The notes under the pieces: model-generated
Seen by the model: the letters and a program-made list of their open reading frames with translations, nothing else
Told to the model about the DNA's origin: nothing
Database searches by the model: none
DNA from: a virus
DNA: 64,000 nucleotides
Strand: one strand, 5' to 3'
IMG/VR virus record: IMGVR_UViG_3300046694_000291
Span: 20,107 to 84,106 of that record
Shown: positions 2,442 to 43,795 of the stretch, one piece after another
Layout of the letters: each line of letters opens with the position of its first letter
How positions within the stretch are numbered: the stretch's first letter is position 1
Position numbers and translations under genes: made by a program

Positions 2442-2556
2442 GGTCTGTGATCCTTTGGTCTGTGGTCCCCGTCGGCCGGGGCCGTGGGTAGTACGTCACA
2501 GAGGAGGGTACCTACCTTTAAGTAAATCGAAACATCCCGAGCGAGAGGACCACGGA

Positions 2557-11629: not shown

Positions 11630-11929
11630 ATGGACTGGAGTGAGCGACTGCTCACCGTGGTCGGACCGGGGGCTTCTGTGAGCGGTCTGGAGACAGACCC
11701 CTTCACCGGAGCGGGGCTGACGATCTCTGTTCCCGAGCACTTTCCTGACAAGGACGAGGTGCTCTCGATCGCCCCGAATCACCCGTGCAGGCATGGCGAA
11801 GGTACGGGCTGTGACTGTGTCTGGTGCCATGCCTGCTGGAAGTGGAGCCGGGACAACGGTGCGGTGGATGAGAACGGTTGGCACTACCTGAGCTGTATGC
11901 ACCGGACAGGGTGGAGGAGCGAACCGTGA
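11630..11929 (+). CDS. hypothetical Cys-rich protein
   Basis: Fills gap; stop overlaps primase GTG. Confidence 0.5.
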   Translation: MDWSERLLTVVGPGASVSGLETDPFTGAGLTISVPEHFPDKDEVLSIAPNHPCRHGEGTGCDCVWCHACWKWSRDNGAVDENGWHYLSCMHRTGWRSEP

Positions 11930-14900: not shown

Positions 14901-16293
14901 GTACCTGTCCGGTGACCTTGGGGCCACCGGCCGCCTGTACCGCAAGCAGCAGGCCGAGCACCCCGAGCGTATGGACTACCGGCGCCGGGAGATGAAGGTC
15001 GCCTGGATCCAGAACCGGATGACGCTGTCCGGCTGGAAGATCGACGTACCCCTGCTGCGGGCCCGGGTGGCCGAGGAGGCGGAGAAGAAGCAGGCCAGCC
15101 TCCAGTGGCTGGCCGAGAACGCGGGCGTCCCCCTGACCGAGACCAAGAGCCGTGGACGCGGCTCCAGGAAGGAGTTCTACGAGGAGGCGCGCAAGAGCCC
15201 CCTCGGCTCGAACGCCGGACGTGAGGCGCTGGAGCGGGCGTTCAGGGACCGGGGCCTGCCGTACGTGCTCACCACGGAGAGCGGCGTGCTCGCGCTCAAC
15301 AAGGACGCCATGGGCGTGGGGAGCTACATGGTCGGCAAGGGCGCCAGTGGCCAGGTTCTGCCCGGCCTGCTGAACCCGCTGCGGAAGGAGCGCACCCCGG
15401 ACGCCGACTGGAACGCGATCGACGAGATGGCCGGTCATATCCGGACCGTCACCACCGCCGTGGCCAAGTACCAGGAGATCATGGACCACCTGACCGGCGA
15501 CCGGGTGCACGGCCACGTCGGCGAGACCCAGGGCTCGGGCCGGTGGGCGATGGTGAAGCCGAGCGTGACCAACCTCGGCAAGCGCGGCGGCAAGGTGATC
15601 CAGCGGGCGCCGTTCATCGCCGACGACGGCTGCGTGCTGATCGCCTTCGACCTCGACCAGGTGGACATGCGGGCGTTCGCCGGACACTGCGGCGACCCCG
15701 AGTACGCGGGCATGTTCATCCGGGGCGAGGACCCGCACTCCATGATCGCCACGATGGTGTTCGGACGGGCCGACGGCGAATGGCGCGACCGGGCCAAGGC
15801 CTCCGGTCACGGCTGGAACTACGGCCTGAGCGTGAACGGGCTCGTGAACCAGGGCATCGAGCGGTCGCTGGCGGAGCGGTTCGACGCCGGTATGAACGAG
15901 AGCTACCCGGCCCTGTGCTCCTGGCGCAGCGAGGTGCGCAGCCGGGGCGAGTCCGGGGAGCTGCTGGACAACGGCTTCGGGCGCCTGATGCGGGTGGACC
16001 CCCGCCGGGCCTACACCCAGGCACCGGCCCTGATGGGCCAGGGAACGGCGAGGGACATCCTGGTCGAGGGGCTGCTGCGGCTGCCGGACGAGTACGTGCC
16101 GTGGATGCGCGGCGTGGTGCATGACGAAGTGATCTTCAACGTTCCGGAGGACCGGGTGGAGGAGTGCATCACCACCGTGACCGCCGCCCTGACGTTCGAC
16201 CTGGCCGAGGTGAGCACGCTGCACCCGGTGCCGATCACGACCGGGGCCAGCAAGGCCGCACACAGTTGGGACGGTTGCTATGTCAAGGACTGA
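11926..16293 (+). CDS. primase (TOPRIM/DUF3854-like) - D5/SF3 helicase - 3'-5' exonuclease - family A DNA polymerase fusion
   Basis: LWITEGIKKAD/ICFDAD (TOPRIM); GGGANGKST, LEE, INSN (SF3); WDIE, GHNIFRFD (exonuclease); FDLDQVDMR, RAKASGHGWNYG, VVHDEV (PolA motifs A/B/C). Confidence 0.92.
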   Translation: MTTVEAPPELYDFHQRELEESCISAEVQTARRYETLYGTDEDKARLKELRVPRWAWRDETAFPALLLPMYRVTGEEIGVQFKPALPQEAPGGKLQKYASQSGTPNRLDVPPGVADLVRDPSVPLWITEGIKKADCLASHGKAALTLTGVFNWRSKMGTLGDWEDVPLQGRDVVICFDADTRDKRTVMLAMQRLGRWLESKQARPLYLIVPPEVEREGGARVAVKGVDDFLYAGGTMDGLRDAAVRQLATGTQDAAFTDAMLTDTVVNETLEGRFKWAKGLGWMQWTGKLWEEASDASVVEAVRQWGLEQFQLVLDEQRRDANRDLGAQIEGWRSTLSKAKISNLVSLARGPLECAAVDFDADPDKLNCPNGIVDLRTGTLTPADPDALMTKITGADFVRNARHPDWDKALKALPPEVVDWFQIRIGQAITGHTTSDGKVLVCQGGGANGKSTVYDGIAMSVGKYAVQVSDRAMLGGASDNHPTEIMDLMGARYAVLEETPEARRLDTNRLKKLADTREITGRRIRQDPVTFEATHSLFINSNYRPVVDETDHGTWRRLALVVWPYTFREHRGQLRGPNDRLGDPTLRERIKLDPQALEAALAWAAEGARRWYELEKIMPHLPERVEADTLAWRKESDLILAFIDDHLQFDLEACVQGTELRTVFNTWVKEKGGREWGDKTFNTRFGGHDLCAQNNVEYKVMKNPRDLSSLGGRGPHQGMVRAWLGVAWRAEEPGSGESNGQVKDPFSGPNHDRVTGVTPPGITEKFPTRGAVNSQGVTPVTGNSCTPKNEDPMTKETDYGTDPFAPVQAAPEAPSPAVSRPALPVLAGPVGWDIEAPSSKKLFTFRSQPGAPYARLNGLVDENGQEVITNDPAELIELLERAPMIYGHNIFRFDLMALAWHHGADYDRLAKKAWDSYVDEATCDPSGGQYLAPWNQKGYYGLNDALVRRGEPGKTDHLPELAREYGDPSLAGKAREEDGYEKIPPDNERYRSYLSGDLGATGRLYRKQQAEHPERMDYRRREMKVAWIQNRMTLSGWKIDVPLLRARVAEEAEKKQASLQWLAENAGVPLTETKSRGRGSRKEFYEEARKSPLGSNAGREALERAFRDRGLPYVLTTESGVLALNKDAMGVGSYMVGKGASGQVLPGLLNPLRKERTPDADWNAIDEMAGHIRTVTTAVAKYQEIMDHLTGDRVHGHVGETQGSGRWAMVKPSVTNLGKRGGKVIQRAPFIADDGCVLIAFDLDQVDMRAFAGHCGDPEYAGMFIRGEDPHSMIATMVFGRADGEWRDRAKASGHGWNYGLSVNGLVNQGIERSLAERFDAGMNESYPALCSWRSEVRSRGESGELLDNGFGRLMRVDPRRAYTQAPALMGQGTARDILVEGLLRLPDEYVPWMRGVVHDEVIFNVPEDRVEECITTVTAALTFDLAEVSTLHPVPITTGASKAAHSWDGCYVKD
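14184..14268. repeat. perfect 19-bp inverted repeat around an AT-richer spacer; candidate replication origin
   Basis: GGTTACGGGAGTTACACCT (14184-14202) / AGGTGTAACTCCCGTAACC (14250-14268). Confidence 0.85.
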
Positions 16294-16498
16294 GCGCTGG
16301 TGGGGTCAGAGGACCCTCGCCGAGGTCACCACGCTGCTGTGCCCGCTGTGCCGGGCGCCGCTGTACCTGGTCGTCTGGAGGGACGAGACCATGCTGCCCG
16401 GCCACCTGACCGAGTCCCTGGTCACCTGCTCGGGCAGTGGCAAGACCCTGGAAGCCGCCCGGGAGCTGGCCGCGCTCCGGCTCCGGGCTCACCCCTGA
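16280..16498 (+). CDS. small CCHC Zn-finger protein, paralog 1 (ends AHP)
   Basis: CPLC..LPGH..CSGS..AHP*. Confidence 0.6.
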   Translation: MSRTERWWGQRTLAEVTTLLCPLCRAPLYLVVWRDETMLPGHLTESLVTCSGSGKTLEAARELAALRLRAHP

Positions 16499-16526
16499 AT
16501 CACCGACCAAGGAAAGGAAACTGACC

Positions 16527-16772
16527 ATGCATCGTGCCAAGTGCCCTTTGTGCAAAGGGTATGTGATAACGGTCTACGACAAGGACCACTTCGGGATCAA
16601 GGGCGTGATCCTGGCCGGGCACACCCCGAGCCGCTTCACCGACCGCCGGTACCAGGTCACGCACGCCGGGCAGTACCAGGGACTGTGCCTCGGCTCGGCC
16701 CTGACCCCGGACTTCGCTCAGGCCGTGGCGGACATGCGGGCCGAGGGGCGGCACCTGGCGGCGCACCCGTGA
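16527..16772 (+). CDS. small CCHC Zn-finger protein, paralog 2 (ends AHP)
   Basis: CPLC..LAGH..CLGS..AHP*; AAGGA RBS. Confidence 0.65.
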   Translation: MHRAKCPLCKGYVITVYDKDHFGIKGVILAGHTPSRFTDRRYQVTHAGQYQGLCLGSALTPDFAQAVADMRAEGRHLAAHP

Positions 16773-16990
16773 CCGGGATCCGGGGCGACGTGGTGTCGCG
16801 CATCTGCCCCGAGTGCGGGATGGAGATGTGGGTGTGGTCCGGGGAGGCGACCTCCCTCCATCGCATCCCCCTGCACGGGCCGACCCAGTCGCCCTGCTGG
16901 ATCTCGGGAGTGACCTGGGAGGAGGCCCGGGAGATGATCCGGATGCGCACCGAGAACGGGGGCGCGCTGCTCCGGGCGGCGCATCCGTGA
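16769..16990 (+). CDS. small CCHC Zn-finger protein, paralog 3 (ends AHP)
   Basis: CPEC..IPLH..CWIS..AHP*; GTGA overlap. Confidence 0.6.
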   Translation: MTGIRGDVVSRICPECGMEMWVWSGEATSLHRIPLHGPTQSPCWISGVTWEEAREMIRMRTENGGALLRAAHP

Positions 16991-17029
16991 CCGTATGGTC
17001 ATACGGCACCGGCCGGGGTAACGCTCCGG

Positions 17030-17147
17030 ACACCCACGCTGACCAGCCACACTGCGAACTCGGGCCGGGTGGTACGAGGCCACCACCGGGTCCGGGTTCG
17101 CTCCTCAGAAGGGAACCTCCGGACTCCGCTACGCTACGGACCGGTAG
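17030..17147 (+). repeat. dispersed ~115-bp intergenic element, copy 1
   Basis: CTGACC-N6-ACTGCGAACTCGG..GGGTGG..GTTCGCTCCTCAGAAGGGAA..TACGCTACGGACCGGTA, shared with 24263-24378 and 43796-43913. Confidence 0.85.
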
Positions 17148-17218
17148 GTTTAGGTAAATCGTACGGACGGTAACCGAGTAGGTATACGGCCCCGAACATG
17201 GACCAAGGAAGGACGATC

Positions 17219-17476
17219 ATGGCCGGACTCATCCGCAAGATCCTGCGCGCGGCCGTGGCGCAGCCGTGGGAGTACGTCGGCGACGGTGCGCCGGACGACT
17301 GGGAGTTCCGTATCAGCCCGGACGAGGAGACCCTGGCGGTCTACAACCCGAGCCGTGGCAAGTGGTACCTGTTCCACGACGTGATCATGCTGGCCGAGGT
17401 GACGAGCCTGGACGAGATGGACCGCAACACCACCCACTGGCGCCAGTTCCTGAGCGTGGAGGACCCGGATGACTGA
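17219..17476 (+). CDS. hypothetical protein
   Basis: AGGAAGG RBS, good codon usage. Confidence 0.7.
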   Translation: MAGLIRKILRAAVAQPWEYVGDGAPDDWEFRISPDEETLAVYNPSRGKWYLFHDVIMLAEVTSLDEMDRNTTHWRQFLSVEDPDD

Positions 17477-17873
17477 CCCGTTCTGTCCCGAGGCCGGACC
17501 TTCCGGGGCGCTGTGCGGCGTGCTGGCCCGCATTACCCACTCCGAGCACTTCGCCCGGGACGGCTCGACCTGGACCACCGGCCGCGTCCATTCCGCTCCT
17601 GTGGTCCAGCCCGCTGACTGGCTCTGGGACAAGCTGGGCATCGACCCCGACCGCATCAGCCGGACGGAGTTCGGTGTCCTTCTGCGGGGGTATCTCCGGC
17701 GCATGAACCAGCAGGCCTCGGCTCCTCCCCAGGTGCTGATCCCCACCATCCAGGGAAAAGTCGGACGTGTCCCGATGATGCTGCGCCCGTGCATCTGCTG
17801 CCGCTGCACCGGCACCACCATGTGCTGGCACGCCGACGAGGGCGGCTGCCACTGGGGCGGACCCGGACGGTGA
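17469..17873 (+). CDS. hypothetical Cys-rich protein
   Basis: Coupled ORF. Confidence 0.55.
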   Translation: MTDPFCPEAGPSGALCGVLARITHSEHFARDGSTWTTGRVHSAPVVQPADWLWDKLGIDPDRISRTEFGVLLRGYLRRMNQQASAPPQVLIPTIQGKVGRVPMMLRPCICCRCTGTTMCWHADEGGCHWGGPGR

Positions 17874-17922
17874 CCGGTGCAGCGTGTCATCATCTGTCCC
17901 GAGGCCGGACGAGAGGAACAGC

Positions 17923-18681
17923 ATGACCACGGAGTACATCGAGACCAGGATGATCCCGCTCAGTGAGCTGACCCTGTTCCCGGGCAACGCCCGGCGGGGC
18001 AACCGGAAGAAGCTCCTGGAGTCCCTGGAGGCCAACGGCCAGTACCGCTCCCTGATCGTGCGGGACACGGGTGGTGAGCTGATCGTGCTCGCGGGCAACA
18101 ACACCATGCAGGCCCTGGAGGAGCGCGGCGACGACCGGGCCCGCTGCGAGGTGGTCGAGTGCGATGATCAGACCGCGCTCCGGGTCAACCTGGTCGACAA
18201 CAAGGCCAACGACGAGGCCACCTACGACGACCGGGCGCGCGCCGAGCTGCTCGGCATGCTGGACGGGCTGGAGGGCACCGGCTACGACGAGGAAGAGGTC
18301 GACACGCTGGTCGCCCGGTTCGAGGAGGAGGAGTTCACCGAGGTCGCCGAGCCGGAGGTCGCCGAGTTCAACGACGACGCCGAGGAGCGCCAGGCCCGGG
18401 TCCGCTCCCACGGCGGGGACGACAGCAAGACCATGGAGTCCCGGGGTATCCGGGACATCTTCATCCCCCTGCCGGTGGCACAGGCCGACGAGCTGGGACG
18501 TCTGATCATGAAGCTGCGTGAGACCTGGGGCGCGGCACCACAGGGCGAAGTGCTGCTCAAGGCGGCACGGGTGGCGCTCGGGGTAGCGGTCCACGCCGGG
18601 GACAACCGGGCCGAGGCACCTCGGCCGGACGAGCTGATGAGCGCGGCCGAGGTCGTGTTCGACCCCCAGGACCCCGAGTGA
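17923..18681 (+). CDS. ParB/Srx-like domain protein
   Basis: IPLSELTLFPGNARRG..SLEANGQYRSLIV..VLAGNNT..VDNK. Confidence 0.85.
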   Translation: MTTEYIETRMIPLSELTLFPGNARRGNRKKLLESLEANGQYRSLIVRDTGGELIVLAGNNTMQALEERGDDRARCEVVECDDQTALRVNLVDNKANDEATYDDRARAELLGMLDGLEGTGYDEEEVDTLVARFEEEEFTEVAEPEVAEFNDDAEERQARVRSHGGDDSKTMESRGIRDIFIPLPVAQADELGRLIMKLRETWGAAPQGEVLLKAARVALGVAVHAGDNRAEAPRPDELMSAAEVVFDPQDPE

Positions 18682-19772
18682 TCGAGCTGACCGAGGGCAT
18701 GGACTTCCGGCGCATCGAGCTGCGTCAGGAGGTCTTCCTGCGCTTCTACGAGTGGAGCGTGAAGTACAACAGCTTCCCCGGCGGGGTGCACTACGTGCTC
18801 CCGTACGTGGCCGAGGCCCTGGAGCTGGACACAGAGAGCCGTTACTGGCTGGCCTGGCTCAACGCCAACACCCAGAACCCTGTCACCTCCCTCCTGCTCC
18901 TCCAGGCCGCCCCCCGGCCCCGGGACTGGAAGGCGGCCGTCGACTTCTGGCGCGCCAACTACCGCTCGCTCGACTGGGACACCGACCGCCGGTACCACAA
19001 GGCCCGCTTCGAGGACGCGCTCACCGGCTATGCCTCGGCCACGGACTGCTCCTGCTCCATGCCGCAGCACCGGTACTTCCGCTCGGCCGGGGGCGACTGG
19101 ACCGGCTGGTGGGAGCGGGCGTTCGCTCTGCCGACCATGGGCCGTCTGAGCACGTGGTCGTACCTGGAGTACCTGCGCATCCTGCTCGGCCCGGCTGTCG
19201 TGCCCGACGCCGACACGCTGATGGTCGAGGACATCCAGGGCAGCCGGTCGCACCGCAACGGGCTCGCACTCGTGCTCGGGCACGACCACCTGATCGTGGA
19301 CAAGCAGCTCGGTCGGCCCGGCATCACGGACGCGGTCTACGACCGGGACGTGCTGGAGTACCTGGGCGAGGAGGCGCACAGTCTGTTCTCCGTGGCGCAG
19401 CAGCGCATCGGGGCCGGGGCCGACCTGCTCTCCCTGGAGTCCGCTCTCTGCACGTACAAGAGCTGGCACAAGCCCAACCGCCGCTACCCCGGCGTCTACA
19501 ACGACATGCTGTACAACCGGCTGGTGGGGGCGGAGAACAGGTTCGGCTACCGGTTCGGTCTCATCTGGGAGGCACGGGCCGCGTCCCTGCCGGAGCGCCT
19601 GCTGCTGGAGAAGCAGACGTACGACCCGGGCCTGAGCCCGGTCAAGCAGAACTGGTACCTCCAGACGGGCCAGGTCATCAACATGACGGAGGACTGGTCA
19701 TGCTTCCGGAACGACTTCGAGCAGAAGGTGGCGCTCCACGAGTTCGGAAACCGGGGCCGTCCGTGGATCTGA
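18678..19772 (+). CDS. amino acid:DNA transferase (aGPT-Pplase2 family)
   Basis: DWDTDRRY, MGRLSTWSYLEYL, SRSHRNGL and LESALCTYKSWHKPNRRYPGVYNDM match the family of M6/ViI thymidine-hypermodifying transferases. Confidence 0.85.
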   Translation: MIELTEGMDFRRIELRQEVFLRFYEWSVKYNSFPGGVHYVLPYVAEALELDTESRYWLAWLNANTQNPVTSLLLLQAAPRPRDWKAAVDFWRANYRSLDWDTDRRYHKARFEDALTGYASATDCSCSMPQHRYFRSAGGDWTGWWERAFALPTMGRLSTWSYLEYLRILLGPAVVPDADTLMVEDIQGSRSHRNGLALVLGHDHLIVDKQLGRPGITDAVYDRDVLEYLGEEAHSLFSVAQQRIGAGADLLSLESALCTYKSWHKPNRRYPGVYNDMLYNRLVGAENRFGYRFGLIWEARAASLPERLLLEKQTYDPGLSPVKQNWYLQTGQVINMTEDWSCFRNDFEQKVALHEFGNRGRPWI

Positions 19773-20629
19773 GGCACTGGATGAGCCCGGTGCAGGAGCG
19801 CGACGGCCGCTGGTACAAGCGCGAGGACCTCTGCGCCCTCCCCGCCGGAGTCAACGGCGCCAAGCTCCGCGCCTGCGACCACCTGATCCGGCAGGGCGCC
19901 GCAGCGGGCAAGACCCGCGTCATCTCCGCCGCCTCGGTCCTGAGCCCGCAGAACGCCATGGCCTCGGTGCTCGCGCGCCGGTACGGCATGCGCTGCACGG
20001 TCGTGCTCGGAGGGGTCGGCCCCGGCTCCTGGCGCAAGCACACCGCCGTCCAGGTCGCCATCGACCACGGCGCCACCTTCGACTTCATCCGGGTGGGGTA
20101 CAACCCGGCGCTCCAGCGGCGCGCCCGGGACCTGCATGAGCTGGACCCGCAGGCCTACTGGCTCCAGTACGGCATCACCACCCCCGAGGACGCCTCGGCC
20201 CGGGAGCTGCGCGCCTTCCACCAGATCGCCGCAGACCAGGTCGCCAACCTGCCCGAGCAGATCAAGACGTTGGTCATCCCGTTCGGCTCGGGCAACACGG
20301 CCGCCGGGGTGCTCATGGGCCTGAACCAGCACCGTCCCCCGGCCCTGGAACGTGTCGTGCTCGTCGGCATCGGGCCCGACCGGCGCCGCTGGCTGCGCGA
20401 CCGCTTCGACTTCATGGGCGTGAGCCTGCCGGTGTTCCGTCACCTCGATCTGCACGGCACCGGCTACGCCCAGTACTCGGACAAGATGCCTGGCCAGGCC
20501 GATGGCATCGTGCTCCACCCGACCTACGAGGGCAAGGTCGTCCGCTACCTGGACGAGAAGGCACCCGACTGGTGGGTGCGCAGGGACGGCACCACTTGTC
20601 TCTGGATCGTAGGAGGGCCGCTCAAGTGA
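19763..20629 (+). CDS. PLP-dependent (fold type II) enzyme, putative DNA-bound amino-acid decarboxylase
   Basis: KREDL..VNGAKLR (PLP lysine), SVLSPQ, GYNPAL, YGIT, QVANLP, PFGSGNT, HPTYEGK; alternative start ATG 19781. Confidence 0.82.
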   Translation: MDLRHWMSPVQERDGRWYKREDLCALPAGVNGAKLRACDHLIRQGAAAGKTRVISAASVLSPQNAMASVLARRYGMRCTVVLGGVGPGSWRKHTAVQVAIDHGATFDFIRVGYNPALQRRARDLHELDPQAYWLQYGITTPEDASARELRAFHQIAADQVANLPEQIKTLVIPFGSGNTAAGVLMGLNQHRPPALERVVLVGIGPDRRRWLRDRFDFMGVSLPVFRHLDLHGTGYAQYSDKMPGQADGIVLHPTYEGKVVRYLDEKAPDWWVRRDGTTCLWIVGGPLK

Positions 20630-20711
20630 TCGAGTGCCGTTGCCCCCGCTGGCCGACCCCGGCCGAGGGCCACCGCCATAACTGCCCGATGAAGATCCTG
20701 GAGAGTCAGTG

Positions 20712-20855
20712 ATGACCAAGCAGAAGACCCTCGTACCGATGTCGCCGGAGCGCCGGGCAGCCGTCTACGCCCGGACCAACGGCACCGACCAGCGCCTGAC
20801 CCCGGCGCAGGACCGCCGCATCCGCAAGGCAGCCCGGAAGGCGCAGCGCTCATGA
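20712..20855 (+). CDS. small basic protein
   Basis: Below ORF-track cutoff; MTKQK...LTPAQDRRIRKAARKAQRS; coupled. Confidence 0.55.
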   Translation: MTKQKTLVPMSPERRAAVYARTNGTDQRLTPAQDRRIRKAARKAQRS

Positions 20856-21013
20856 CGAAAGCAGGCACCCACGGAACCAAGGTCAAGCGCCTCGCACGCG
20901 AACTCCAGAAGCGCGAAGAGATCCCGTACACCGAGGCGTTGCGGCGCGTACTGGCCGCAGGCCCGAAGGAGAGTCCAGTGGTGAACCTCAGTCCGACCAA
21001 GGCGCAGCGATGA
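20852..21013 (+). CDS. small basic protein
   Basis: MTKAG...KRLARELQKREEIPYTEALRRV; ATGA overlaps at both ends. Confidence 0.6.
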   Translation: MTKAGTHGTKVKRLARELQKREEIPYTEALRRVLAAGPKESPVVNLSPTKAQR

Positions 21014-21552
21014 CCTACCTTCCGCAGCCCGGGGACATCGGGCTCACCGTCATCACTGGCTGGGGGCGGTTCATCCGCCTCGGCCAGTGGCTCAACGGGG
21101 ACGGCTTCGCCGACTATGAACACGCCTTCGTCGTGTCCGAGTCCAGCAGCAAGTTCCAGGACAAGATGATCGTGGAGGCGATGCCCGGCGGGGCGCAGCA
21201 CGTGCGTAACTGGCACGACCCGGAGCACACGGTCTACCTGCGCTGCCCCGACCGGTACCGGGAGGCGGTCGCTGCCTCGGCCCGGGGGTTCGTGGGCGTG
21301 CCGTACTCCGTGGCCGACTACTTCGCGCTCGCCGCGCACCGGCTGCACATCCCCGCGCCCCACCTCAAGAAGTTCGTCCGCAGCTCCGGCCACATGATCT
21401 GCTCCCAGCTCGCCGACACTGCGGCGGCCGAGGGCGGCTGGCACCTGTTCGAGGACGGCCGCTGGCCCGGGGACGTCACGCCCGGCGACCTCTACCGGCT
21501 GTACCAGGCGCAGCGCGCTCAGCGCATGAGGACCGGGGACGTGTCACGGTGA
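21010..21552 (+). CDS. permuted papain-like NlpC/P60 (YiiX/YebB-like) enzyme
   Basis: PQPGDIGL..EHAFV..VEAMPGG..GVPYS..ICSQL..VTPGDL (His before Cys). Confidence 0.75.
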   Translation: MTYLPQPGDIGLTVITGWGRFIRLGQWLNGDGFADYEHAFVVSESSSKFQDKMIVEAMPGGAQHVRNWHDPEHTVYLRCPDRYREAVAASARGFVGVPYSVADYFALAAHRLHIPAPHLKKFVRSSGHMICSQLADTAAAEGGWHLFEDGRWPGDVTPGDLYRLYQAQRAQRMRTGDVSR

Positions 21553-21806
21553 CTGAGGATTGGAAGCGCTACGTCGTCACGGCAGGGGATCTGCGTGCGC
21601 AACTCTCCGCTGTACCCGATGACACCCCCGTCATCCTGAGCAAGGACGCGGAGGGCAACAGCTACTCGCCGCTCAGCTCGGTGGACGCGATCCATGTCTA
21701 CGAGCCTGAGAGCACCTGGTCCGGTGAAGTGCGCGACACCACGGACCCGGACTATGAGGCGGACCCCGGGGACACCCGGGTCGTACTGCTGGGACCGGTG
21801 AACTGA
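21549..21806 (+). CDS. hypothetical protein
   Basis: DTPVILSKDAEGNSYSPL; coupled. Confidence 0.65.
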   Translation: MTEDWKRYVVTAGDLRAQLSAVPDDTPVILSKDAEGNSYSPLSSVDAIHVYEPESTWSGEVRDTTDPDYEADPGDTRVVLLGPVN

Positions 21807-22402
21807 TGATCAACAACCTGCTCTACCTCGTGGGCCCGCCGGGCGTCGGCAAGTCCACCGTCGCCCGGGAGCTGACCTCCGGCTGGGACAAGGAGGTGAT
21901 GCGCTCGGTCCCCGTGCCGCACACCCGGCTGCTGCACCCCAGCACGCGCCGGATGCTCGGGCTGGAGCTGGGCGTGCCCCGGGAGCAGTTCCCCGGCACC
22001 GACACCCTCGCCATGGACATCTCGCCCCGCGCGCTCGCCTTCCTGTCCACGGTGCTCGCCCCGTTCGCCCTCGGAGAGGGCTCACGGCTGGCTACGCGGC
22101 CGTTTCTGGGCGAGCTGGCACGGGCGGGCGTCGCAGTCACGCTCGTGCGCCTGACGGCAGACGAGGAGCTCCTCACCGCGCGCTGGCAGGGCCGGGGAGC
22201 CAAGCAGAACCCGAGCTGGCGCAAGGGCGCGGCCACGCGGTCCGACCGGCTGGCCGACTGGTTCCTCACCCAGACCTCGGAGCACCGCACCGGCTTCCGC
22301 ACCTACCTCGACCTCGACGCCACCGAGGCCACCCCGGCCGAGCTGGCCGACAGCATCCGGGACCGCTTCCCTCTCATCGACCTGAGAGAATCAGCGGCAT
22401 GA
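21806..22402 (+). CDS. P-loop kinase, 5-hmU DNA kinase-like
   Basis: GPPGVGKST, FPGTDTLAM, GEGSRL, RGAKQNPSW resemble the nucleotide-modification-associated P-loop kinases; cluster context. Confidence 0.78.
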   Translation: MINNLLYLVGPPGVGKSTVARELTSGWDKEVMRSVPVPHTRLLHPSTRRMLGLELGVPREQFPGTDTLAMDISPRALAFLSTVLAPFALGEGSRLATRPFLGELARAGVAVTLVRLTADEELLTARWQGRGAKQNPSWRKGAATRSDRLADWFLTQTSEHRTGFRTYLDLDATEATPAELADSIRDRFPLIDLRESAA

Positions 22403-22605
22403 TTCGACGAGCCGTGTTCGTGCTGCTGTCCCCGGCGGTGTTCCTGCCGTTCGGGCTGCTGGCCGTGTGGTCGGGGCTGCGCAGCGTCGGGTGGTGGCTG
22501 AGCACCGGGGTGTGGAAGCTCCCCGAAGAGTTGCCGCCGTCCCGCCTCGACGCGCTGGGTGTCCGGGTCTGGAACAGGCTCTCCTCCTGGACGGAGGCTT
22601 CATGA
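22399..22605 (+). CDS. small membrane protein
   Basis: Hydrophobic N-terminus, coupled at both ends. Confidence 0.55.
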   Translation: MIRRAVFVLLSPAVFLPFGLLAVWSGLRSVGWWLSTGVWKLPEELPPSRLDALGVRVWNRLSSWTEAS

Positions 22606-23495
22606 TCAGCATCCGTGCCCGCACCCGGGTCCCCCAGGCAGAGCTGGACCTCAAGGTCGGCAAGGTGCTCGGCCCGGACAGCTTCAACGTTCTCATGACC
22701 GGGCCGACCCGCGTCCTCCAGCCCAACGGCAAGCTGCTGTGCGTCTACCTGCCGGGGGCGATGAAGGGCTTCGTCACCGAGGAGCAGTACCAGATCCTCC
22801 ACGGCCTGCGCAGCCAGATGACCAACGCCCGGGGCGCGGCGTCCGGGTCGACCGCTGTGCGCGCCGGAGCGCAGAAGCGGCAGTACTACATGCACGTCAG
22901 TAGCAACATCATCGGGGCCATCGACCCCATCAGCACGTACAAGTACTGCCGCCTGACCTCCTGGACCGGCGCGAACCTGCCGAGCTGGAAGGCGCTCCAG
23001 CCCGCCCTTAAGCGGGTGGGCGACCAGCTCCACACCCACGTGCCGGAGCGGTACGACGCGCAGATGGAGGAGATCGAGCAGACGCACCCGGACTGGGTCG
23101 TACCCGGCACCCCGTTCACCACCATCACGGTCAACAACACCTACCCGACCGGCATGCACACCGACAAAGGCGACCTCGACAAGGGCCTGAGCACGATCTT
23201 CACCCTGCGCCGGGGCAGCTACACCGGGGGCACCTTCCTCTTCCCCGAGTTCCGCATCGGGGTCGACATGCAGGACAACGACCTGATCCTGATGGACGCG
23301 CACCAGTGGCACGCCAACACGGCCATCACCTGCGCCTGCGGCCGTAAGGTCACCCGGTACTGCGAGGAGTGCGGGGCCGAGCGGATCAGCGTGGTGAGCT
23401 ACATGCGCACCAACATGACCCGCTGCGCGAGCGAGGCAGAGGAGATCAAAAGGGCCCAGGATCACCGCGAGAAGTTCAAGGGCGCGGGCCGTTAG
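22602..23495 (+). CDS. TET/JBP-family 2OG-Fe(II) dioxygenase
   Basis: FTTITVNN, HTDKGD (HxD), YTGG..FPE, DAHQWHANT (H), ERISVVSYMR (RxS). Confidence 0.9.
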   Translation: MISIRARTRVPQAELDLKVGKVLGPDSFNVLMTGPTRVLQPNGKLLCVYLPGAMKGFVTEEQYQILHGLRSQMTNARGAASGSTAVRAGAQKRQYYMHVSSNIIGAIDPISTYKYCRLTSWTGANLPSWKALQPALKRVGDQLHTHVPERYDAQMEEIEQTHPDWVVPGTPFTTITVNNTYPTGMHTDKGDLDKGLSTIFTLRRGSYTGGTFLFPEFRIGVDMQDNDLILMDAHQWHANTAITCACGRKVTRYCEECGAERISVVSYMRTNMTRCASEAEEIKRAQDHREKFKGAGR

Positions 23496-23516
23496 CGTTC
23501 CTGGGAGGTTAGGATC

Positions 23517-24155
23517 ATGGTCACTCCGTACGACTCCGCCGATCATGCCCGGGTAGAAGCCCGCAGGTGGAAGGCCATCTCTCTGGCCAACCGGGGTCTC
23601 ACGCACCGCATGGTCGCCGAGCAGATGGAGGCTGACTACGCGCCGGGCCTCTCCCTGGAGCAGCGCACCGCTCAGGTGAGCGTCGACATCACCCGAGCGC
23701 TCAAGGTCTACCGCAAGCGCGTGGACCAGGGCATCGAGGAGAAGCTCACCGCCGCGACCCTGCGCCTCAACGAGGTCCGCCGTCGGCTGTACGCGGTCAT
23801 CGTGGCGGAGCACTACGTGCTCTACCAGGGCGAGATCGTCAAGGACAAGGAGGGCCGCCCTCTCCGGGACCACGGTCCCGTGCTCGCGGCGCTCGCTCAG
23901 CTCCGTGCCCTGGAGGAGCAGCAGGCCAAGCTGGAGGGCACCAACGCCCGGGAGAAGATCGATGTCGCGCTCGGCCGCCGGGTCGAGGAGGAGGCCACGG
24001 ACGTGGTCGAGGCGATCCTCGCCGGATTCAGTGCCGTGCCCGAGCTGGAGCCCGCCGTACGGCAGCGCGTGCTGGAGGCCGCCGGTGCGCACCTGCGCGC
24101 CCTGGAGGCTGGGCCGGGCGACGACGGGATTACGGACGCGGAGATCGTGGAATAG
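23517..24155 (+). CDS. putative terminase small subunit (HTH)
   Basis: RRWKAISLANRGLTHRMVAEQM HTH; LEEQQAKLEG motif; position upstream of terL. Confidence 0.65.
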   Translation: MVTPYDSADHARVEARRWKAISLANRGLTHRMVAEQMEADYAPGLSLEQRTAQVSVDITRALKVYRKRVDQGIEEKLTAATLRLNEVRRRLYAVIVAEHYVLYQGEIVKDKEGRPLRDHGPVLAALAQLRALEEQQAKLEGTNAREKIDVALGRRVEEEATDVVEAILAGFSAVPELEPAVRQRVLEAAGAHLRALEAGPGDDGITDAEIVE

Positions 24156-24168
24156 ACCGGGAGTCAAC

Positions 24169-24205
24169 AGGCCCTGGACGGTCACCCATGCCCCGTCCAG
24201 GGCCT
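24169..24205 (+). terminator. hairpin terminator
   Basis: AGGCCCTGGACGG...CCGTCCAGGGCCT. Confidence 0.7.
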
Positions 24206-24262
24206 TCGTCTGCGGTATACCTATACCAGCTCCCCGCAGCCCGGAATGTCTGATTTAGTAAA

Positions 24263-24378
24263 ACCACTCCCTGACCTGGGTGACTGCGAACTCGGAGTGG
24301 GTGGCCCAGGCGTACCACCGGGCTCAAGTTCCCTCCTGAGAAGGGAACCTCGTCCCCTCGCTACTCTACGGACCGGTA
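24263..24378 (+). repeat. dispersed ~115-bp intergenic element, copy 2
   Basis: 34 nt identical to copy 3 (CTGACCTGGGTGACTGCGAACTCGGAGTGGGTGG) plus AGAAGGGAA and CTACGGACCGGTA blocks. Confidence 0.85.
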
Positions 24379-24449
24379 ACCAGGGCCAGTTGTTACGCTC
24401 CGGACCCGTATAAGCATGTCAACCGATGTATGACCGAGGAAGGCAGACC

Positions 24450-24758
24450 ATGAGCGAAGTGCCCGGGTTCCACTACCCGTCCGAGACCGAGCGGGACCCG
24501 GTCCTGCCCCGGACCATGGGCGACCCGATCGTCCTGTCCGAGCCGCAGTACGAGGAGATCACCGCCGAGAGGGAGCAGGTCGACCTGGAGCCGTTCCGGG
24601 ACTTCGAGTTCGACCTCCAGACCAACCGCCTGCGCGTGGCCGGGTACAGCCCCGAGGAGGCGGCCGAGATGCTGCGCATCTACCGCGAGCACCTCCGGCT
24701 CATGGCCGAGAACGCGCAGCTCTTCATGGCCGAACTGTCCCAGGCGGCAGAGACGTGA
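24450..24758 (+). CDS. hypothetical acidic protein
   Basis: GAGGAAGG RBS, good codon usage. Confidence 0.65.
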   Translation: MSEVPGFHYPSETERDPVLPRTMGDPIVLSEPQYEEITAEREQVDLEPFRDFEFDLQTNRLRVAGYSPEEAAEMLRIYREHLRLMAENAQLFMAELSQAAET

Positions 24759-24913
24759 CCTCCATGTTTGGCCGGACACCGGTTTAGGTAAATACTCACC
24801 AGTGTCCCGGGCCGCAGGAGGCGATGACCTTGCGGAGGTCGGTGACCACAACAGATGCCCTCGGGGGCAAGAGGCCCGGGGGCATCTTCCAATTCCCGCC
24901 CAAGGACCATCCG

Positions 24914-26816
<1,903 letters not shown>

Positions 26817-26833
26817 TCTGGCCGTGCTCACTC

Positions 26834-26868
26834 CGCAGCCCCGGGGAAGTCCACGCTCCGGGGCTGCG
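26834..26868 (+). terminator. hairpin terminator
   Basis: CGCAGCCCCGG...CCGGGGCTGCG. Confidence 0.7.
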
Positions 26869-26879
26869 CCGTGTCCCGG

Positions 26880-26909
26880 TTGAATTGACCAGACCGGCAC
26901 TGCTAACCT
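26880..26909 (+). promoter_or_regulatory. sigma70/HrdB-like promoter
   Basis: TTGAAT-N18-TAACCT with TG extension. Confidence 0.5.
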
Positions 26910-26910
26910 C

Positions 26911-27190
26911 GCCCCAACGAGCGGGGGCACTCGCTCGGGGCGTGACGGAAGGCTGCTATGCGGAACGGCGGCCGAACGTGCGACCGGCGGAAGACAACCG
27001 CCCGGGTGGCTGGCCAACGGTGATCCACCCCGGCGGGACGAGGGTAGCGCCTCGGAATCTGTGCCTTCGCAGGCTAACGGTTGACCTGGATCTTCGCCTT
27101 GAACCCGAGGGCCGCGATCCAGTGGAGGTGGAATCCTCCCACCCACACAACCCCCGGCGCTGGGATCTTGCCCAGCTCACCGGGGGCTTC
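26911..27190 (+). ncRNA. candidate structured non-coding RNA
   Basis: No credible ORF; about 8 consecutive hairpins ending in a T-loop-like GGAGG-TGGAAT-CCTCC, followed by a terminator-like stem at 27151-27186. Confidence 0.45.
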
Positions 27191-27308
27191 GTGTGTCCGG
27201 GCAGGCCCGAGACCCCGCACTGTCCGGACAGCGACGAGGTCTCTTCGCTCGGGAGGCGCACGGCTCTGCCGGGCCGACCCTCACGATCCGTCGAGCATAC
27301 TGAGCCCC

Positions 27309-43741: not shown

Positions 43742-43795
43742 CTTATTCGGTCCGACGAATACACATACGGTTCCGGAGAGCTACATTCCTTGAAA

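What the first reader, a model, noticed from the sequence alone, without database searches (positions are those of the whole stretch)
17923..24155. TET/JBP-initiated, fully post-replicative thymine hypermodification pathway next to the small terminase
Seen: one co-oriented, mostly start/stop-overlapping block encodes a ParB-like protein, an aGPT-Pplase2 amino-acid:DNA transferase, a PLP enzyme, a 5-hmU DNA kinase-like P-loop protein, a TET/JBP dioxygenase and a putative TerS. Established: in Pseudomonas phage M6 and Salmonella phage ViI, kinase + transferase + PLP decarboxylase hypermodify 5-hmU that is made before replication by a thymidylate-synthase-family dUMP hydroxymethylase. The phage TETs I know to be characterised oxidise 5mC next to a C5-methyltransferase. 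Neither a hydroxymethylase nor a C5-MTase is visible in this window. Inference: TET/JBP oxidises T to 5-hmU on DNA (JBP-like), then kinase (pyrophosphoryl), amino-acid transfer and decarboxylation follow. With no radical-SAM isomerase visible, the ViI-type product (Ser-derived 5-aminoethoxymethyl-U) or a new base is the simplest prediction. Such neighbourhoods were predicted computationally for actinophages, but I know of no biochemical demonstration of the complete route. The position beside TerS/ParB hints at site-limited or packaging-coupled modification.
Basis: partly seen in the sequence, partly recalled or inferred. Interest (0 to 1): 0.9.

Follow-up and report, generated by a model that had tools for sequence, protein, structure and literature searches.

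The report
Phage thymine hypermodification operon, TET-started
A soil Streptomyces-type phage carries a real operon that most likely oxidises thymine in finished DNA and rebuilds it into an amino-acid-derived base, but this design is already published, so it is a good new example and not a new principle.

Summary
Window 17923-24155 (+ strand) encodes a ParB-like protein, an amino acid:DNA transferase (PF18724), a fold-type-II PLP enzyme, a P-loop kinase (PF18751), a TET/JBP dioxygenase (PF12851) and a helix-turn-helix protein that may be TerS. The complete 84-kb genome has no thymidylate-synthase-family, ThyX, C5-methyltransferase or radical-SAM gene. Nine related IMG/VR contigs keep the gene order.

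The kind is already known. Lee et al. 2021 noted TET_JBP replacing the dUMP hydroxymethylase. O'Toole et al. 2026 showed phage T-dioxygenases, including a ParB-activated subclass linked to P-loop kinases and these transferases. Mycobacterium phage Prince is already annotated this way. This scan found the kind at least 80 times on other DNA.

Local details:
- The transferase and PLP enzyme are closest to the ViI serine/decarboxylase pair among characterised ones.
- The kinase belongs to a third family; the two assayed kinases I scanned (M6 gp54, ViI gp243) belong to others.
- ParB has GNNT where canonical ParB has GERR.
- A papain-like gene inside the operon is probably a passenger.
- TerS is unproven.

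Verdict: new member of a known kind; product unknown.

The parts
17039..17146 (+). Upstream copy of a ~110-nt structured repeat that brackets the cluster
   Evidence: Direct repeat family D3, 74% identical to 24271-24378. Aligned with a third, inverted copy at 43786-43912. Consensus fold of 37 pairs. No Rfam family.
17198..17476 (+). p92, unknown protein inside the bracketed unit
   Evidence: Found in 5 of 9 close relatives at 55-61% identity. No Pfam or NCBIfam match.
17469..17873 (+). p134, unknown and variable
   Evidence: Found in 1 of 9 close relatives. No family match.
17923..18681 (+). ParB-like protein, predicted activator of the dioxygenase: N-terminal ParB nucleotide-binding domain, acidic linker, conserved C-terminal domain, no detected DNA-binding domain
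   Evidence: phrog_723 E 1.8e-38. Profile against PDB matches only positions ~11-114 of Spo0J/ParB/Noc (E about 1e-6), with GNNT aligned to GERR. Alignment A3.
18678..19772 (+). Amino acid:DNA transferase (AADT, formerly aGPT-Pplase2)
   Evidence: PF18724, 48.4 bits. 49.5% identical to Prince gp3, 24.6% to ViI gp247 (E 4e-20), no hit to M6 gp51. E254-S255-x-x-C258 aligns with M6 gp51 E243-T244-x-x-C247.
19781..20629 (+). Fold-type-II PLP enzyme, predicted decarboxylase of the DNA-bound amino acid
   Evidence: PF00291, 38.4 bits. 31.9% identical to ViI gp226 (E 8.5e-52), weak match to M6 gp52 (E 0.006). Its lysine aligns with ViI K92 and M6 K36.
20712..20855 (+). Small ORF, 47 aa, basic; probable filler gene
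   Evidence: Read from the sequence. GC3 0.90. Overlaps the next ORF by ATGA.
20852..21013 (+). Small ORF, 53 aa; probable filler gene
   Evidence: GC3 0.76.
21010..21552 (+). p180, permuted papain-like (C92, YiiX/YycO-type) Cys-His hydrolase or acyltransferase; probably a passenger
   Evidence: AF2 pLDDT 85.9. Foldseek top hits are YiiX 2if6 (E 2.1e-4, TM 0.52) and 3kw0. H38, E56 and C131 are invariant in 30 of 30 sequences. Homologs occur in 113 Streptomyces phage records that are not among the TET hits.
21549..21806 (+). p85, variable small protein
   Evidence: DUF6225, 21.9 bits, below the cut-off of 26.5. Found in 0 of 9 relatives.
21806..22402 (+). P-loop kinase of family Ploopntkinase3, predicted 5-hmU DNA kinase
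   Evidence: PF18751, 97 bits, Walker A GPPGVGKS at residue 10. 38% identical to Prince gp4 and AlanGrant gp4. No hit to M6 gp54 or ViI gp243, which are PF18748 and PF18747.
22399..22605 (+). Small hydrophobic ORF, 68 aa, overlapping the kinase stop and the TET start
   Evidence: GC3 0.88. Absent where kinase and TET abut in L003-L005.
22602..23495 (+). 5-methylpyrimidine dioxygenase (TET/JBP), predicted ParB-dependent thymine dioxygenase
   Evidence: PF12851, 62 bits. H186, D188, H237, R261, the four-Cys cluster 244-257 and C275 are invariant in 34 of 34 sequences. About 22 residues follow C275.
23517..24155 (+). p212, helix-turn-helix plus long-helix protein; possible small terminase
   Evidence: phrog_645 in 54 of 54 family members, HTH_23 in 18 of 54, Terminase_5 in 1 of 54. 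AF2 pLDDT 91.5. Foldseek top 8 rows are G20c/P74-26 TerS, but at E 0.04-0.26. It sits next to TET only in close relatives.
24271..24378 (+). Downstream copy of the bracketing structured repeat

Best explanation
This is a thymidine hypermodification operon of a Streptomyces-type tailed phage. It works entirely on finished DNA.

Step 1. The TET/JBP-family dioxygenase (5mYOX), switched on by the ParB-like protein at the head of the operon, hydroxylates thymine in double-stranded phage DNA to 5-hydroxymethyluracil. The chemistry and the ParB dependence are shown for other members of this class. They are inferred here from family, motifs and context.

Step 2. The Ploopntkinase3-family kinase phosphorylates the hydroxymethyl group. 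This is inferred. The step is shown only for kinases of other families.

Step 3. The amino acid:DNA transferase displaces the phosphate with a free amino acid. The family chemistry is shown elsewhere. The donor here is inferred.

Step 4. The PLP enzyme removes the carboxylate. This is shown for its ViI and M6 homologs.

A PLP enzyme needs a free alpha-amine, and the genome has no radical-SAM isomerase. So the amino acid is most likely attached through its side chain, as serine is in phage ViI. That would give 5-(2-aminoethoxy)methyl-uracil or a close analogue.

My odds:
- The pathway as outlined: about 0.8.
- The specific ViI-type product, if the pathway is right: about 0.4.
- ParB acting as activator: about 0.75.

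The papain-like gene, p85 and the three small ORFs inside the operon are probably mosaic passengers. p212 is a backbone gene, possibly TerS, and not part of the chemistry. The probable purpose is protection of phage DNA from host restriction, by analogy with M6 and ViI. That purpose is inferred.
For: Families and scores
- PF12851, PF18751, PF18724 and PF00291 all score above their curated cut-offs.
- ParB matches phrog_723 at E 1.8e-38.

Catalytic residues
- TET: H186-x-D188, H237, R261 and C275 are invariant in 34 of 34 sequences.
- PLP enzyme: its lysine aligns with the predicted Schiff-base lysines ViI gp226 K92 and M6 gp52 K36 named by Lee et al..
- AADT: E254, S255 and C258 align with M6 gp51 E243, T244 and C247. 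These are the positions the PaMx11 gp46 structure paper names as metal ligands and base clamp.

No other source of 5-hmU or 5mC, and no isomerase
- The whole complete genome lacks PF00303, PF02511, PF00145, PF04055 and PF01555.

Synteny
- The order is kept in 9 of 9 close relatives as far as each contig reaches.
- ParB is kept in 2 of 2 relatives at 49% TET identity.

Match to the published ParB-dependent class
- A ParB gene in the cluster, with a nucleotide-binding domain and a C-terminal domain and no detected DNA-binding domain.
- A C-terminal extension after the last conserved Cys.
- Linkage to a P-loop kinase and an AADT.

Closest characterised enzymes
- ViI gp247 serine transferase: E 4e-20. 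ViI gp226 decarboxylase: E 8.5e-52.
- M6 gp51: no hit. M6 gp52: E 0.006.

Cultured actinophages
- Mycobacterium phage Prince carries ParB, 'thymidine hydroxylase', an AADT homolog and a kinase before the terminase.
Against: - Nothing here is biochemical.
- The kinase is not in either Pfam family of the two assayed 5-hmdU DNA kinases that I scanned. M6 gp54 is PF18748 and ViI gp243 is PF18747. It gives no blastp hit to them. Step 2 therefore rests on context.
- The transferase is only 24.6% identical to ViI gp247. Li et al. 2026 show that two members of this family at about 35% identity use different donors, and that donors can be diamines. Serine is therefore a guess.
- I could not place the dioxygenase in the published clade C1 tree. 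The reference sequences are in supplements that are closed.
- In vitro the published enzymes also oxidise 5mC, and a host methyltransferase cannot be excluded.
- The ParB has GNNT in place of the canonical GERR, so how it acts is open.
- Two GT2 glycosyltransferases and a sugar epimerase elsewhere in the genome could use 5-hmU as well.
Confidence: 0.8

Rival explanations
1. The pathway is right but the product is not the ViI base. The transferase attaches another donor, such as threonine, homoserine, cysteine, a side-chain-linked diamino acid or an amine. Alternatively the PLP enzyme does chemistry other than decarboxylation. Either way the phage DNA carries a different thymine derivative, possibly an undescribed one.
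For: - Identity to ViI gp247 is only 24.6%.
- Family members at about 35% identity use different donors, and 'many clusters remain functionally uncharacterized'.
- The PLP enzyme's nearest NCBIfam models, all far below their cut-offs, are ACC deaminase and D-cysteine desulfhydrase-like enzymes.
Against: - The transferase and the PLP enzyme both find their best characterised match in the same phage, ViI, and not in M6.
- There is no radical-SAM gene, so an N-alpha-linked glycine could not be decarboxylated in the M6 manner.
Confidence: 0.45
2. The dioxygenase acts on 5-methylcytosine laid down by a host methyltransferase and feeds a cytosine modification. It does not act on thymine.
For: The published phage T-dioxygenases also oxidise 5mC in vitro (abstract). 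Host methylation was not examined.
Against: - The complete genome has no C5-methyltransferase.
- The operon's partners (AADT, a ViI-type PLP enzyme, a P-loop kinase) belong to thymidine pathways.
- O'Toole et al. found a C5-MT in only 6% of such neighbourhoods.
Confidence: 0.04
3. ParB and p212 (as TerS) tie modification to particular sites or to packaging. ParB would load at a parS-like site and spread, so that only DNA near a packaging site is modified.
For: - The operon lies between the replication and packaging modules.
- Terminases co-occur in 19.2% of the published neighbourhoods.
- In Prince and AlanGrant the kinase abuts the terminase.
- O'Toole et al. discuss selective site targeting (NTR preference) and a possible clamp-like role.
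Against: - No DNA-binding domain was detected in this ParB, and GERR is replaced by GNNT.
- In the published system, mutations of the NTP-binding residues did not abolish function (abstract).
- p212 is absent next to TET in the two relatives at 49% identity and in the two mycobacteriophage loci.
- TerL is 2.9 kb away.
Confidence: 0.1
4. The 5-hmU is, wholly or partly, glycosylated by the GT2 and epimerase genes of the left arm, as in base J. The amino-acid branch would then be minor.
For: - Two PF00535 genes and a PF01370 epimerase are present.
- Glycosyltransferases are the commonest neighbours of phage 5mYOX, at 31%.
Against: - These genes lie 21-29 kb from the operon's start (26-34 kb from the dioxygenase gene), on the other strand.
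- O'Toole et al. link glycosyltransferases mainly to the ParB-independent clade.
- From recall, such phage genes may instead glycosylate virions.
Confidence: 0.06

Closest known systems
ParB-dependent phage T-dioxygenase neighbourhoods (5mYOX clade C1, e.g. 5mYOX176/ParB176; O'Toole et al., PNAS 2026, PMC13229309; preprint 10.1101/2025.08.14.668559)
   Same: - A TET/JBP dioxygenase with a cognate ParB-like gene that has a nucleotide-binding and a C-terminal domain but no evident DNA-binding domain.
- A C-terminal extension on the dioxygenase.
- No C5-methyltransferase.
- Linkage to a P-loop kinase and an amino acid:DNA transferase.
   Different: - Here ParB and the dioxygenase sit at opposite ends of a 5.6-kb operon instead of side by side.
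- A ViI-type PLP enzyme is present. The paper's main text never mentions PLP.
- There is no GATase.
- Clade placement and ParB dependence were not tested here.
Salmonella phage ViI (Vi01) 5-NeOmdU pathway: gp67/gp243 kinases, gp247 serine:DNA transferase, gp226 PLP decarboxylase (Lee et al., NAR 2021, PMC8989533)
   Same: - A transferase of PF18724 and a fold-type-II PLP enzyme with the aligned lysine.
- Both are the best characterised matches of the window's proteins.
- No radical-SAM isomerase.
   Different: - ViI makes 5-hmdU before replication; the window's genome has no thymidylate-synthase-family gene and has TET/JBP instead. I did not search the ViI record for its hydroxymethylase.
- The kinase family differs: PF18751 here against PF18747 for gp243.
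- Identities are low, 24.6% and 31.9%.
Left-end cluster of cluster-B-type mycobacteriophages (Mycobacterium phage Prince PQ184799: gp1 ParB-like, gp2 'thymidine hydroxylase', gp3 AADT homolog labelled 'DNA glycosylase', gp4 kinase, gp5 terminase) and the five-gene system noted in Rhodococcus phage Tonitrus (PMC11955845)
   Same: - The same kinase family, PF18751.
- AADT 49.5% identical, ParB 28.9%, kinase 38%.
- The cluster sits just before the packaging genes.
- The Tonitrus authors describe a ParB-like, tet-like, aGPT-Pplase2 and 5-hmU kinase set.
   Different: - The annotated Prince cluster (gp1-gp5) has no PLP gene.
- Its hydroxylase is too distant to be found by tblastn with the window's enzyme.
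- The gene order differs.
- None of these has published nucleoside chemistry that my searches found.
Pseudomonas phage M6 5-NedU pathway (gp51 glycine transferase, gp52 PLP decarboxylase, gp53 radical-SAM isomerase, gp54 kinase)
   Same: The overall logic of kinase, transferase and PLP decarboxylase, and the shared E-(S/T)-x-x-C motif in the transferase.
   Different: - No blastp hit to gp51 or gp54, and only E 0.006 to gp52.
- No radical-SAM gene.
- M6 carries a thymidylate-synthase homolog, gp58.

Membership tests
ParB-dependent phage T-dioxygenase system (5mYOX clade C1) | Dioxygenase of the TET/JBP family with the Fe(II)/2OG residues intact | tested here: met
   PF12851, 62 bits against 34.9. 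H186, D188, H237 and R261 are invariant in 34 of 34 sequences. Assigning these residues to Fe and 2OG binding rests on general knowledge of the family.
ParB-dependent phage T-dioxygenase system (5mYOX clade C1) | Cognate ParB-like gene in the neighbourhood, with a nucleotide-binding domain and a C-terminal domain and no evident DNA-binding domain | tested here: met
   phrog_723 E 1.8e-38. The PDB profile matches only positions ~11-114. Acidic linker and conserved C-terminal block in A3. No helix-turn-helix family found. No structure was predicted for it.
ParB-dependent phage T-dioxygenase system (5mYOX clade C1) | C-terminal extension beyond the last Cys conserved across both subclasses | tested here: met
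   C275 is invariant and is followed by about 22 residues with a conserved E-x3-A-x3-RE pattern. Equating C275 with the paper's C280 is my inference.
ParB-dependent phage T-dioxygenase system (5mYOX clade C1) | No neighbouring C5-methyltransferase | tested here: met
   No PF00145 in the whole genome.
ParB-dependent phage T-dioxygenase system (5mYOX clade C1) | Placement in clade C1 of the published tree or similarity network | not tested
ParB-dependent phage T-dioxygenase system (5mYOX clade C1) | T to 5-hmU activity on dsDNA that needs the ParB partner | not testable with these tools
   Needs co-expression or an in vitro assay.
ViI-type 5-NeOmdU pathway | Amino acid:DNA transferase of PF18724 with active-site residues | tested here: met
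   48.4 bits against 26.2. E254, S255 and C258 aligned. E 4e-20 to gp247.
ViI-type 5-NeOmdU pathway | gp226-like PLP decarboxylase with the Schiff-base lysine | tested here: met
   E 8.5e-52, 31.9% over 332 columns. Lysine aligned.
ViI-type 5-NeOmdU pathway | 5-hmdU DNA kinase of an assayed family (PF18748 HMUDK_HMUD1 or PF18747 HMUD2) | tested here: not met
   The window kinase hits PF18751 only. M6 gp54 is PF18748 and ViI gp243 is PF18747. No blastp hit at E 0.01. ViI gp67, SP10 gp186, PhiW-14 gp37 and PaMx11 gp49 were not examined.
ViI-type 5-NeOmdU pathway | Pre-replicative 5-hmdU supply by a thymidylate-synthase-family dUMP hydroxymethylase | tested here: not met
   No PF00303 in the complete genome. 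This is the defining difference.
ViI-type 5-NeOmdU pathway | Serine as donor and 5-NeOmdU as product | not testable with these tools
   The donor cannot be read from 24.6% identity.
Small terminase (for p212) | N-terminal helix-turn-helix DNA-binding domain | tested here: met
   HTH_23 in 18 of 54 family members and Sigma70_r4_2 in 10 of 54. VIA-align gives Z 6.0-7.4 to sigma region 4 and DeoR domains over residues 7-76.
Small terminase (for p212) | Fold match to a solved small terminase | tested here: inconclusive
   Foldseek ranks 1-8 are G20c/P74-26 TerS, but at E 0.044-0.26 and TM 0.21-0.32. VIA-align puts G20C TerS at rank 16: Z 6.0, rmsd 9.1, 106 aligned.
Small terminase (for p212) | Gene directly upstream of the large terminase | tested here: not met
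   TerL starts at 27081. Three genes lie between, plus a non-coding stretch of about 265 nt. A distant family member does sit directly before the terminase in Streptomyces phage BayC, but the match is weak, E 8e-4.
Permuted papain-like C92 (YiiX/YaeF/YycO) hydrolases (for p180) | Fold | tested here: met
   Foldseek: 2if6 at E 2.1e-4, probability 1.00, TM 0.52; 3kw0 at E 8.9e-4. The model has pLDDT 85.9.
Permuted papain-like C92 (YiiX/YaeF/YycO) hydrolases (for p180) | Conserved His before Cys (permuted dyad) | tested here: met
   H38 and C131 are invariant in 30 of 30 sequences. That they are the catalytic pair is inferred from the fold family, from recall.
Permuted papain-like C92 (YiiX/YaeF/YycO) hydrolases (for p180) | Pfam PF05708 match | tested here: inconclusive
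   1 of 30 members at E 0.077. CHAP matches 5 of 30, best E 0.0055.

The most novel reading that the evidence does not exclude
In this phage lineage the operon makes a thymine derivative that nobody has described. The route would start on finished DNA and pass through a kinase family (Ploopntkinase3) that has never been assayed. The end group would be further tailored by the papain-like Cys-His enzyme that all nine close relatives keep between the PLP and kinase genes, for example by N-acylation or amide trimming of the appended amine. The left-arm glycosyltransferase and epimerase genes could do the tailoring instead.
Probability: 0.15. Interest if true: 0.6.

Novelty: new member of a known kind. 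Interest (0 to 1): 0.3.

Why it matters
If the route works as predicted, a phage can build a bulky amino-ether thymine without touching its nucleotide pool. That frees it from needing its own dUMP hydroxymethylase and dTTP-depleting enzymes. The modification can then be restricted to a sequence context set by the dioxygenase.

The concept is already in print, so the value of this locus is practical.
- It is a complete, compact and well-delimited example from a complete genome.
- It has many close relatives, which supply natural variants.
- It pairs the published ParB/dioxygenase first step with a ViI-like transferase and decarboxylase.
- Its kinase belongs to an unassayed family.

These features make it a reasonable candidate for the first end-to-end reconstitution of the post-replicative route.

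Tried and rejected
Complex prediction. A job with the dioxygenase (A4) and ParB (A3) returned no verdict (score 0.01, controls not run). It says nothing either way.

Sequence searches against solved structures.
- Nothing useful for the dioxygenase, alone or as a profile.
- Nothing useful for p180, for p212 or for the transferase (only chance histone rows).

DNA-level search. Megablast of the cluster against cultured phages found nothing. tblastn of p212 found nothing.

NCBIfam gave no match above a cut-off for any of 10 proteins.

The ESM Atlas gave only unnamed viral clusters for p212.

Signals. The promoter scan found 0 sites. The 4 terminator-like sites are all on the minus strand and number no more than chance. 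Rfam found nothing in 16200-27200.

p180 as a new tailoring step. I considered this and put it at low odds. Homologs at 40-46% identity occur in 113 Streptomyces phage records (of 114 records hit). None of these is among the 12 records that hold a relative of the dioxygenase. In two records I inspected, the gene sits among tRNA genes or packaging genes.

p212 as part of the chemistry. I rejected this because a profile of its family finds it beside TET only in 4 of 4 close relatives searched. It is not beside TET in either relative at 49% identity or in either mycobacteriophage locus.

AlanGrant as a second TET-fed example. I rejected this too. Its genome has no Tet_JBP or ADDT match, and its gp1 is a ParB domain joined to a weak N6/N4 methylase match.

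Papers.
- Iyer et al. 2013, cited by O'Toole et al. as reference 27, is not held. What I say of it is from that citation and from recall.
- Burke et al. 2021 was seen only in a search listing.
- Supplementary datasets of O'Toole et al. were not seen. They mined IMG/VR and may contain this very contig.

Full report
WHAT THE WINDOW IS

The window is bases 20107-84106 of an 84,106-bp IMG/VR virus record. The record has direct terminal repeats and is rated 100% complete. G+C is 66-71% throughout.

The genes around the finding are as follows.
- A 1471-aa primase-helicase-family-A polymerase fusion at 11878-16293 (DUF3854, D5_N, DUF5906, DNA_pol_A).
- After the cluster, a LuxR-type protein and an Rpf-NlpC/P60-LysM enzyme.
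- The large terminase at 27081-28676.
- Further right, tail and tape-measure genes, a GH25 lysin and a WhiB regulator.

The host is probably Streptomyces or a near relative.
- One gene of the cluster has homologs in 113 Streptomyces phage records.
- Two database relatives carry Streptomyces names.

THE OBSERVATION

Pfam places four of them above the curated cut-offs:
- the transferase in PF18724 (ADDT, formerly aGPT-Pplase2), 48.4 bits against 26.2;
- the PLP enzyme in PF00291, 38.4 against 35;
- the kinase in PF18751 (Ploopntkinase3), 97 against 27;
- the dioxygenase in PF12851 (Tet_JBP), 62 against 34.9.

The first gene has no Pfam hit itself. It matches the PHROG 'ParB-like partition protein' at E 1.8e-38. 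34 of its 120 listed homologs carry PF02195 (my count).

Gene starts needed small corrections.
- ParB begins at 17923 (252 aa).
- The PLP gene begins at 19781.
- The dioxygenase begins at the internal ATG at 22602. All 120 listed homologs are 290-309 aa.

- a 180-aa protein, 21010-21552;
- an 85-aa protein, 21549-21806;
- three small ORFs, 20712-20855, 20852-21013 and 22399-22605.

With these there is no real intergenic gap from 20712 to 23495, and seven junctions are start/stop overlaps.

IS IT MORE THAN CHANCE?

The search for related loci returned 11 IMG/VR loci.

In the nine whose dioxygenase is 72-86% identical, the order ParB-AADT-PLP-p180-kinase-TET-p212 is kept wherever the contig reaches. 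The counts of 9 are ParB 7, AADT 8, PLP 8, p180 8, kinase 8, TET 9 and p212 9. No locus that reaches a position lacks its gene. p85 is found in 0 of 9 and p134 in 1 of 9.

The two loci at 49% identity are incomplete proviruses.
- They keep ParB (2 of 2) and the kinase (1 of 2).
- They show no transferase or PLP match.

So the ParB-dioxygenase pair is the stable core, and the tailoring genes are exchangeable.

THE KEY NEGATIVE

I tested this on the whole genome in six frames. There is no match to:
- thymidylate synthase / dUMP hydroxymethylase (PF00303);
- ThyX (PF02511);
- C5 DNA methyltransferase (PF00145);
- radical SAM (PF04055);
- N6/N4 methylase (PF01555).

The same searches did hit the control genomes.

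WHAT IS ALREADY KNOWN

This decides the novelty.

Lee et al. (NAR 2021, PMC8989533; passages read) reconstituted the M6, ViI and PaMx11 pathways. [quoted passage not shown] O'Toole et al. (PNAS 2026, PMC13229309, with a 2025 preprint; sections 3, 5, 6, 11, 12 and 13 read) then reported the following.
- Phage T-dioxygenases are real.
- One subclass (clade C1 members with a neighbouring ParB) makes almost no 5-hmU alone and up to 25-35% with its cognate ParB.
- This ParB keeps the nucleotide-binding and C-terminal domains but has no evident DNA-binding domain.
- These dioxygenases carry a C-terminal extension.

In cultured actinophages:
- The GenBank record of Mycobacterium phage Prince labels its first genes ParB-like, 'thymidine hydroxylase', (AADT homolog), kinase and terminase.
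- A 2025 note describes a five-gene thymidine hypermodification system in Rhodococcus phage Tonitrus.

This scan has itself noted the kind at least 80 times in at least 63 genomes. That includes soil actinophages with the same ParB-AADT-PLP-kinase-TET order.

HOW THIS LOCUS FITS THE PUBLISHED CLASS

The dioxygenase
- In an alignment of 34 sequences down to 48% identity, H186-x-D188, H237 and R261 are invariant.
- So is a four-cysteine cluster (C244, C246, C254, C257) between the distal histidine and the arginine.
- C275 is invariant and is followed by a conserved tail of about 22 residues. I take this tail to be the C-terminal extension of the ParB-dependent subclass.

The ParB
- A profile of the ParB family matches solved Spo0J/ParB/Noc chains only over profile positions about 11-114, the nucleotide-binding domain (E about 1e-6).
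- In that alignment the canonical GERR is matched by GNNT.
- After it come an acidic linker and a conserved C-terminal block. No helix-turn-helix family is detected.
- Loss of GERR fits the paper's finding that NTP-site mutations do not abolish activation (abstract). That link is my inference.

I could not place the enzyme in the paper's tree, since its sequences are in closed supplements.

THE DOWNSTREAM STEPS

I compared the window's proteins with the assayed enzymes taken from the ViI and M6 records.

The transferase
- It matches ViI gp247, the serine transferase, at 24.6% over 353 columns (E 4e-20).
- It does not match M6 gp51, the glycine transferase, at E 0.01.
- It is 49.5% identical to Prince gp3.
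- Its E254-S255-x-x-C258 aligns with E243-T244-x-x-C247 of M6 gp51 in all 7 sequences aligned.
- The PaMx11 gp46 structure paper names Glu243 and Thr244 as metal ligands and Cys247 as a base clamp (passages). That M6 and PaMx11 share numbering is my inference from equal length and motif position.

The PLP enzyme
- It matches ViI gp226, the O-serinyl-T decarboxylase, at 31.9% (E 8.5e-52).
- It matches M6 gp52 only at E 0.006.
- Its lysine aligns with ViI K92 and M6 K36, the predicted Schiff-base residues.

The reasoning on the product
- A PLP enzyme needs a free alpha-amine, and there is no radical-SAM isomerase.
- A side-chain-linked amino acid, as in ViI, is therefore the simplest reading.
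- It is only a guess. Li et al. (NAR 2026, PMC13458397; abstract and section 33) show that two enzymes of this family at about 35% identity use different donors, and that donors can be diamines.

The kinase, which is the least secure step
- M6 gp54 falls in PF18748 and ViI gp243 in PF18747. The window's kinase and Prince gp4 fall in PF18751.
- There is no blastp hit between the groups.
- In these TET-fed actinophage clusters, phosphorylation of 5-hmU is therefore assigned by context to a third P-loop family. My searches found no assay of it.

THE EXTRA GENES

p180
- It folds with confidence (pLDDT 85.9).
- Its best structural matches are E. coli YiiX (2if6, E 2.1e-4, TM 0.52) and a B. cereus cysteine peptidase (3kw0), followed by PPPDE and LRAT-like proteins.
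- H38, E56 and C131 are invariant in 30 of 30 homologs.
- It is a permuted papain-like hydrolase or acyltransferase.

It is kept inside the operon in all close relatives. However, 113 Streptomyces phage records have a homolog at 40-46% identity. None of them is among the 12 records with a relative of the dioxygenase. Two contexts I inspected have nothing to do with DNA modification. I read it as a mosaic passenger (about 0.7) and keep a tailoring role as the novel case.

p212
- It has an N-terminal helix-turn-helix and long helices (pLDDT 91.5).
- Its eight best Foldseek rows are small terminases of phages G20c and P74-26, but only at E 0.04-0.26 and TM 0.2-0.3.
- An independent aligner ranks sigma-region-4 and DeoR domains first and the G20C terminase 16th.
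- A distant family member lies directly before the terminase in Streptomyces phage BayC, at a weak E of 8e-4.
- Here TerL is 2.9 kb away.
- A family profile finds p212 beside TET only in the close relatives.

TerS is possible (about 0.55). Either way the protein belongs to the phage backbone and not to the pathway.

A related labelling trap: the PHROG that the kinase matches is labelled 'terminase small subunit'. The assayed kinase M6 gp54 carries that same label in RefSeq.

CONTEXT

- A ~110-nt element stands as two direct copies at 17039-17146 and 24271-24378 (74% identity).
- The two copies bracket p92 to p212.
- A third, inverted copy lies at 43786-43912.
- It has no Rfam family.

The cluster therefore looks like one delimited expression unit between the replication and packaging modules. 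Expression together with late genes would let modification act on replicated DNA before packaging. That last point is inference.

Outside the window, the left arm carries a sugar epimerase, two GT2 glycosyltransferases and a weak methyltransferase match. These could glycosylate 5-hmU or, from recall, virion proteins. I did not follow this up.

VERDICT

- It is a new member of a known, published kind.
- ParB is most likely the dioxygenase's activator and not a packaging cue.
- The TerS call is unproven.
- What remains open, here as elsewhere, is the chemistry after 5-hmU: the activity of the Ploopntkinase3 kinase, the donor, and the final base.

Noticed in passing
window 17039-17146, 24271-24378 and 43786-43912 (inverted): A ~110-nt repeated element with a conserved predicted fold brackets the modification cluster. 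A third copy lies antisense in the structural region. No Rfam family matches it. Earlier notes of this scan describe it.
   Followed up: partly
own genome G000:C1 8624-10942 and 16461-17108, minus strand (outside the window): A sugar-nucleotide epimerase/dehydratase (PF01370), two GT2 glycosyltransferases (PF00535) and a weak class-I methyltransferase match. These could be a glycosylation module acting on DNA or on virions.
   Followed up: partly
window 11878-16293: One 1471-aa protein joins a DUF3854 (toprim-like) domain, D5_N, a DUF5906 helicase domain and a family-A DNA polymerase domain.
   Followed up: no
L001 (Mycobacterium phage AlanGrant, KR080200) 1-3152: This phage has a ParB domain fused to a weak N6/N4 methylase match (gp1), a PLP enzyme 41% identical to the window's (gp2) and a Ploopntkinase3-type kinase (gp4) before the terminase. 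Its whole genome has no Tet_JBP or ADDT match, so the PLP-kinase pair has no obvious substrate-making partner.
   Followed up: partly
L020 (Pseudomonas phage M6, NC_007809) 11686-12249, and phrog_800: The biochemically proven 5-hmdU DNA kinase M6 gp54 is labelled 'terminase small subunit' in RefSeq. The PHROG matched by the window's kinase carries the same label. This is a likely source of wrong TerS calls near such clusters.
   Followed up: no
window 17923-18681: In the ParB-like protein the canonical arginine-rich GERR motif is replaced by GNNT. This holds in 32 of the 34 aligned relatives, all but the two most distant.
   Followed up: partly
window 24824-25711 and 25806-26816: Between p212 and the terminase lie a 295-aa protein with a LuxR/GerE-type helix-turn-helix and a secreted-looking Rpf transglycosylase-NlpC/P60-LysM protein.
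   Followed up: no
window 22399-22605: A 68-aa hydrophobic ORF is wedged between kinase and dioxygenase, with ATGA overlaps at both ends. It is absent where the two genes abut in some relatives.
   Followed up: no
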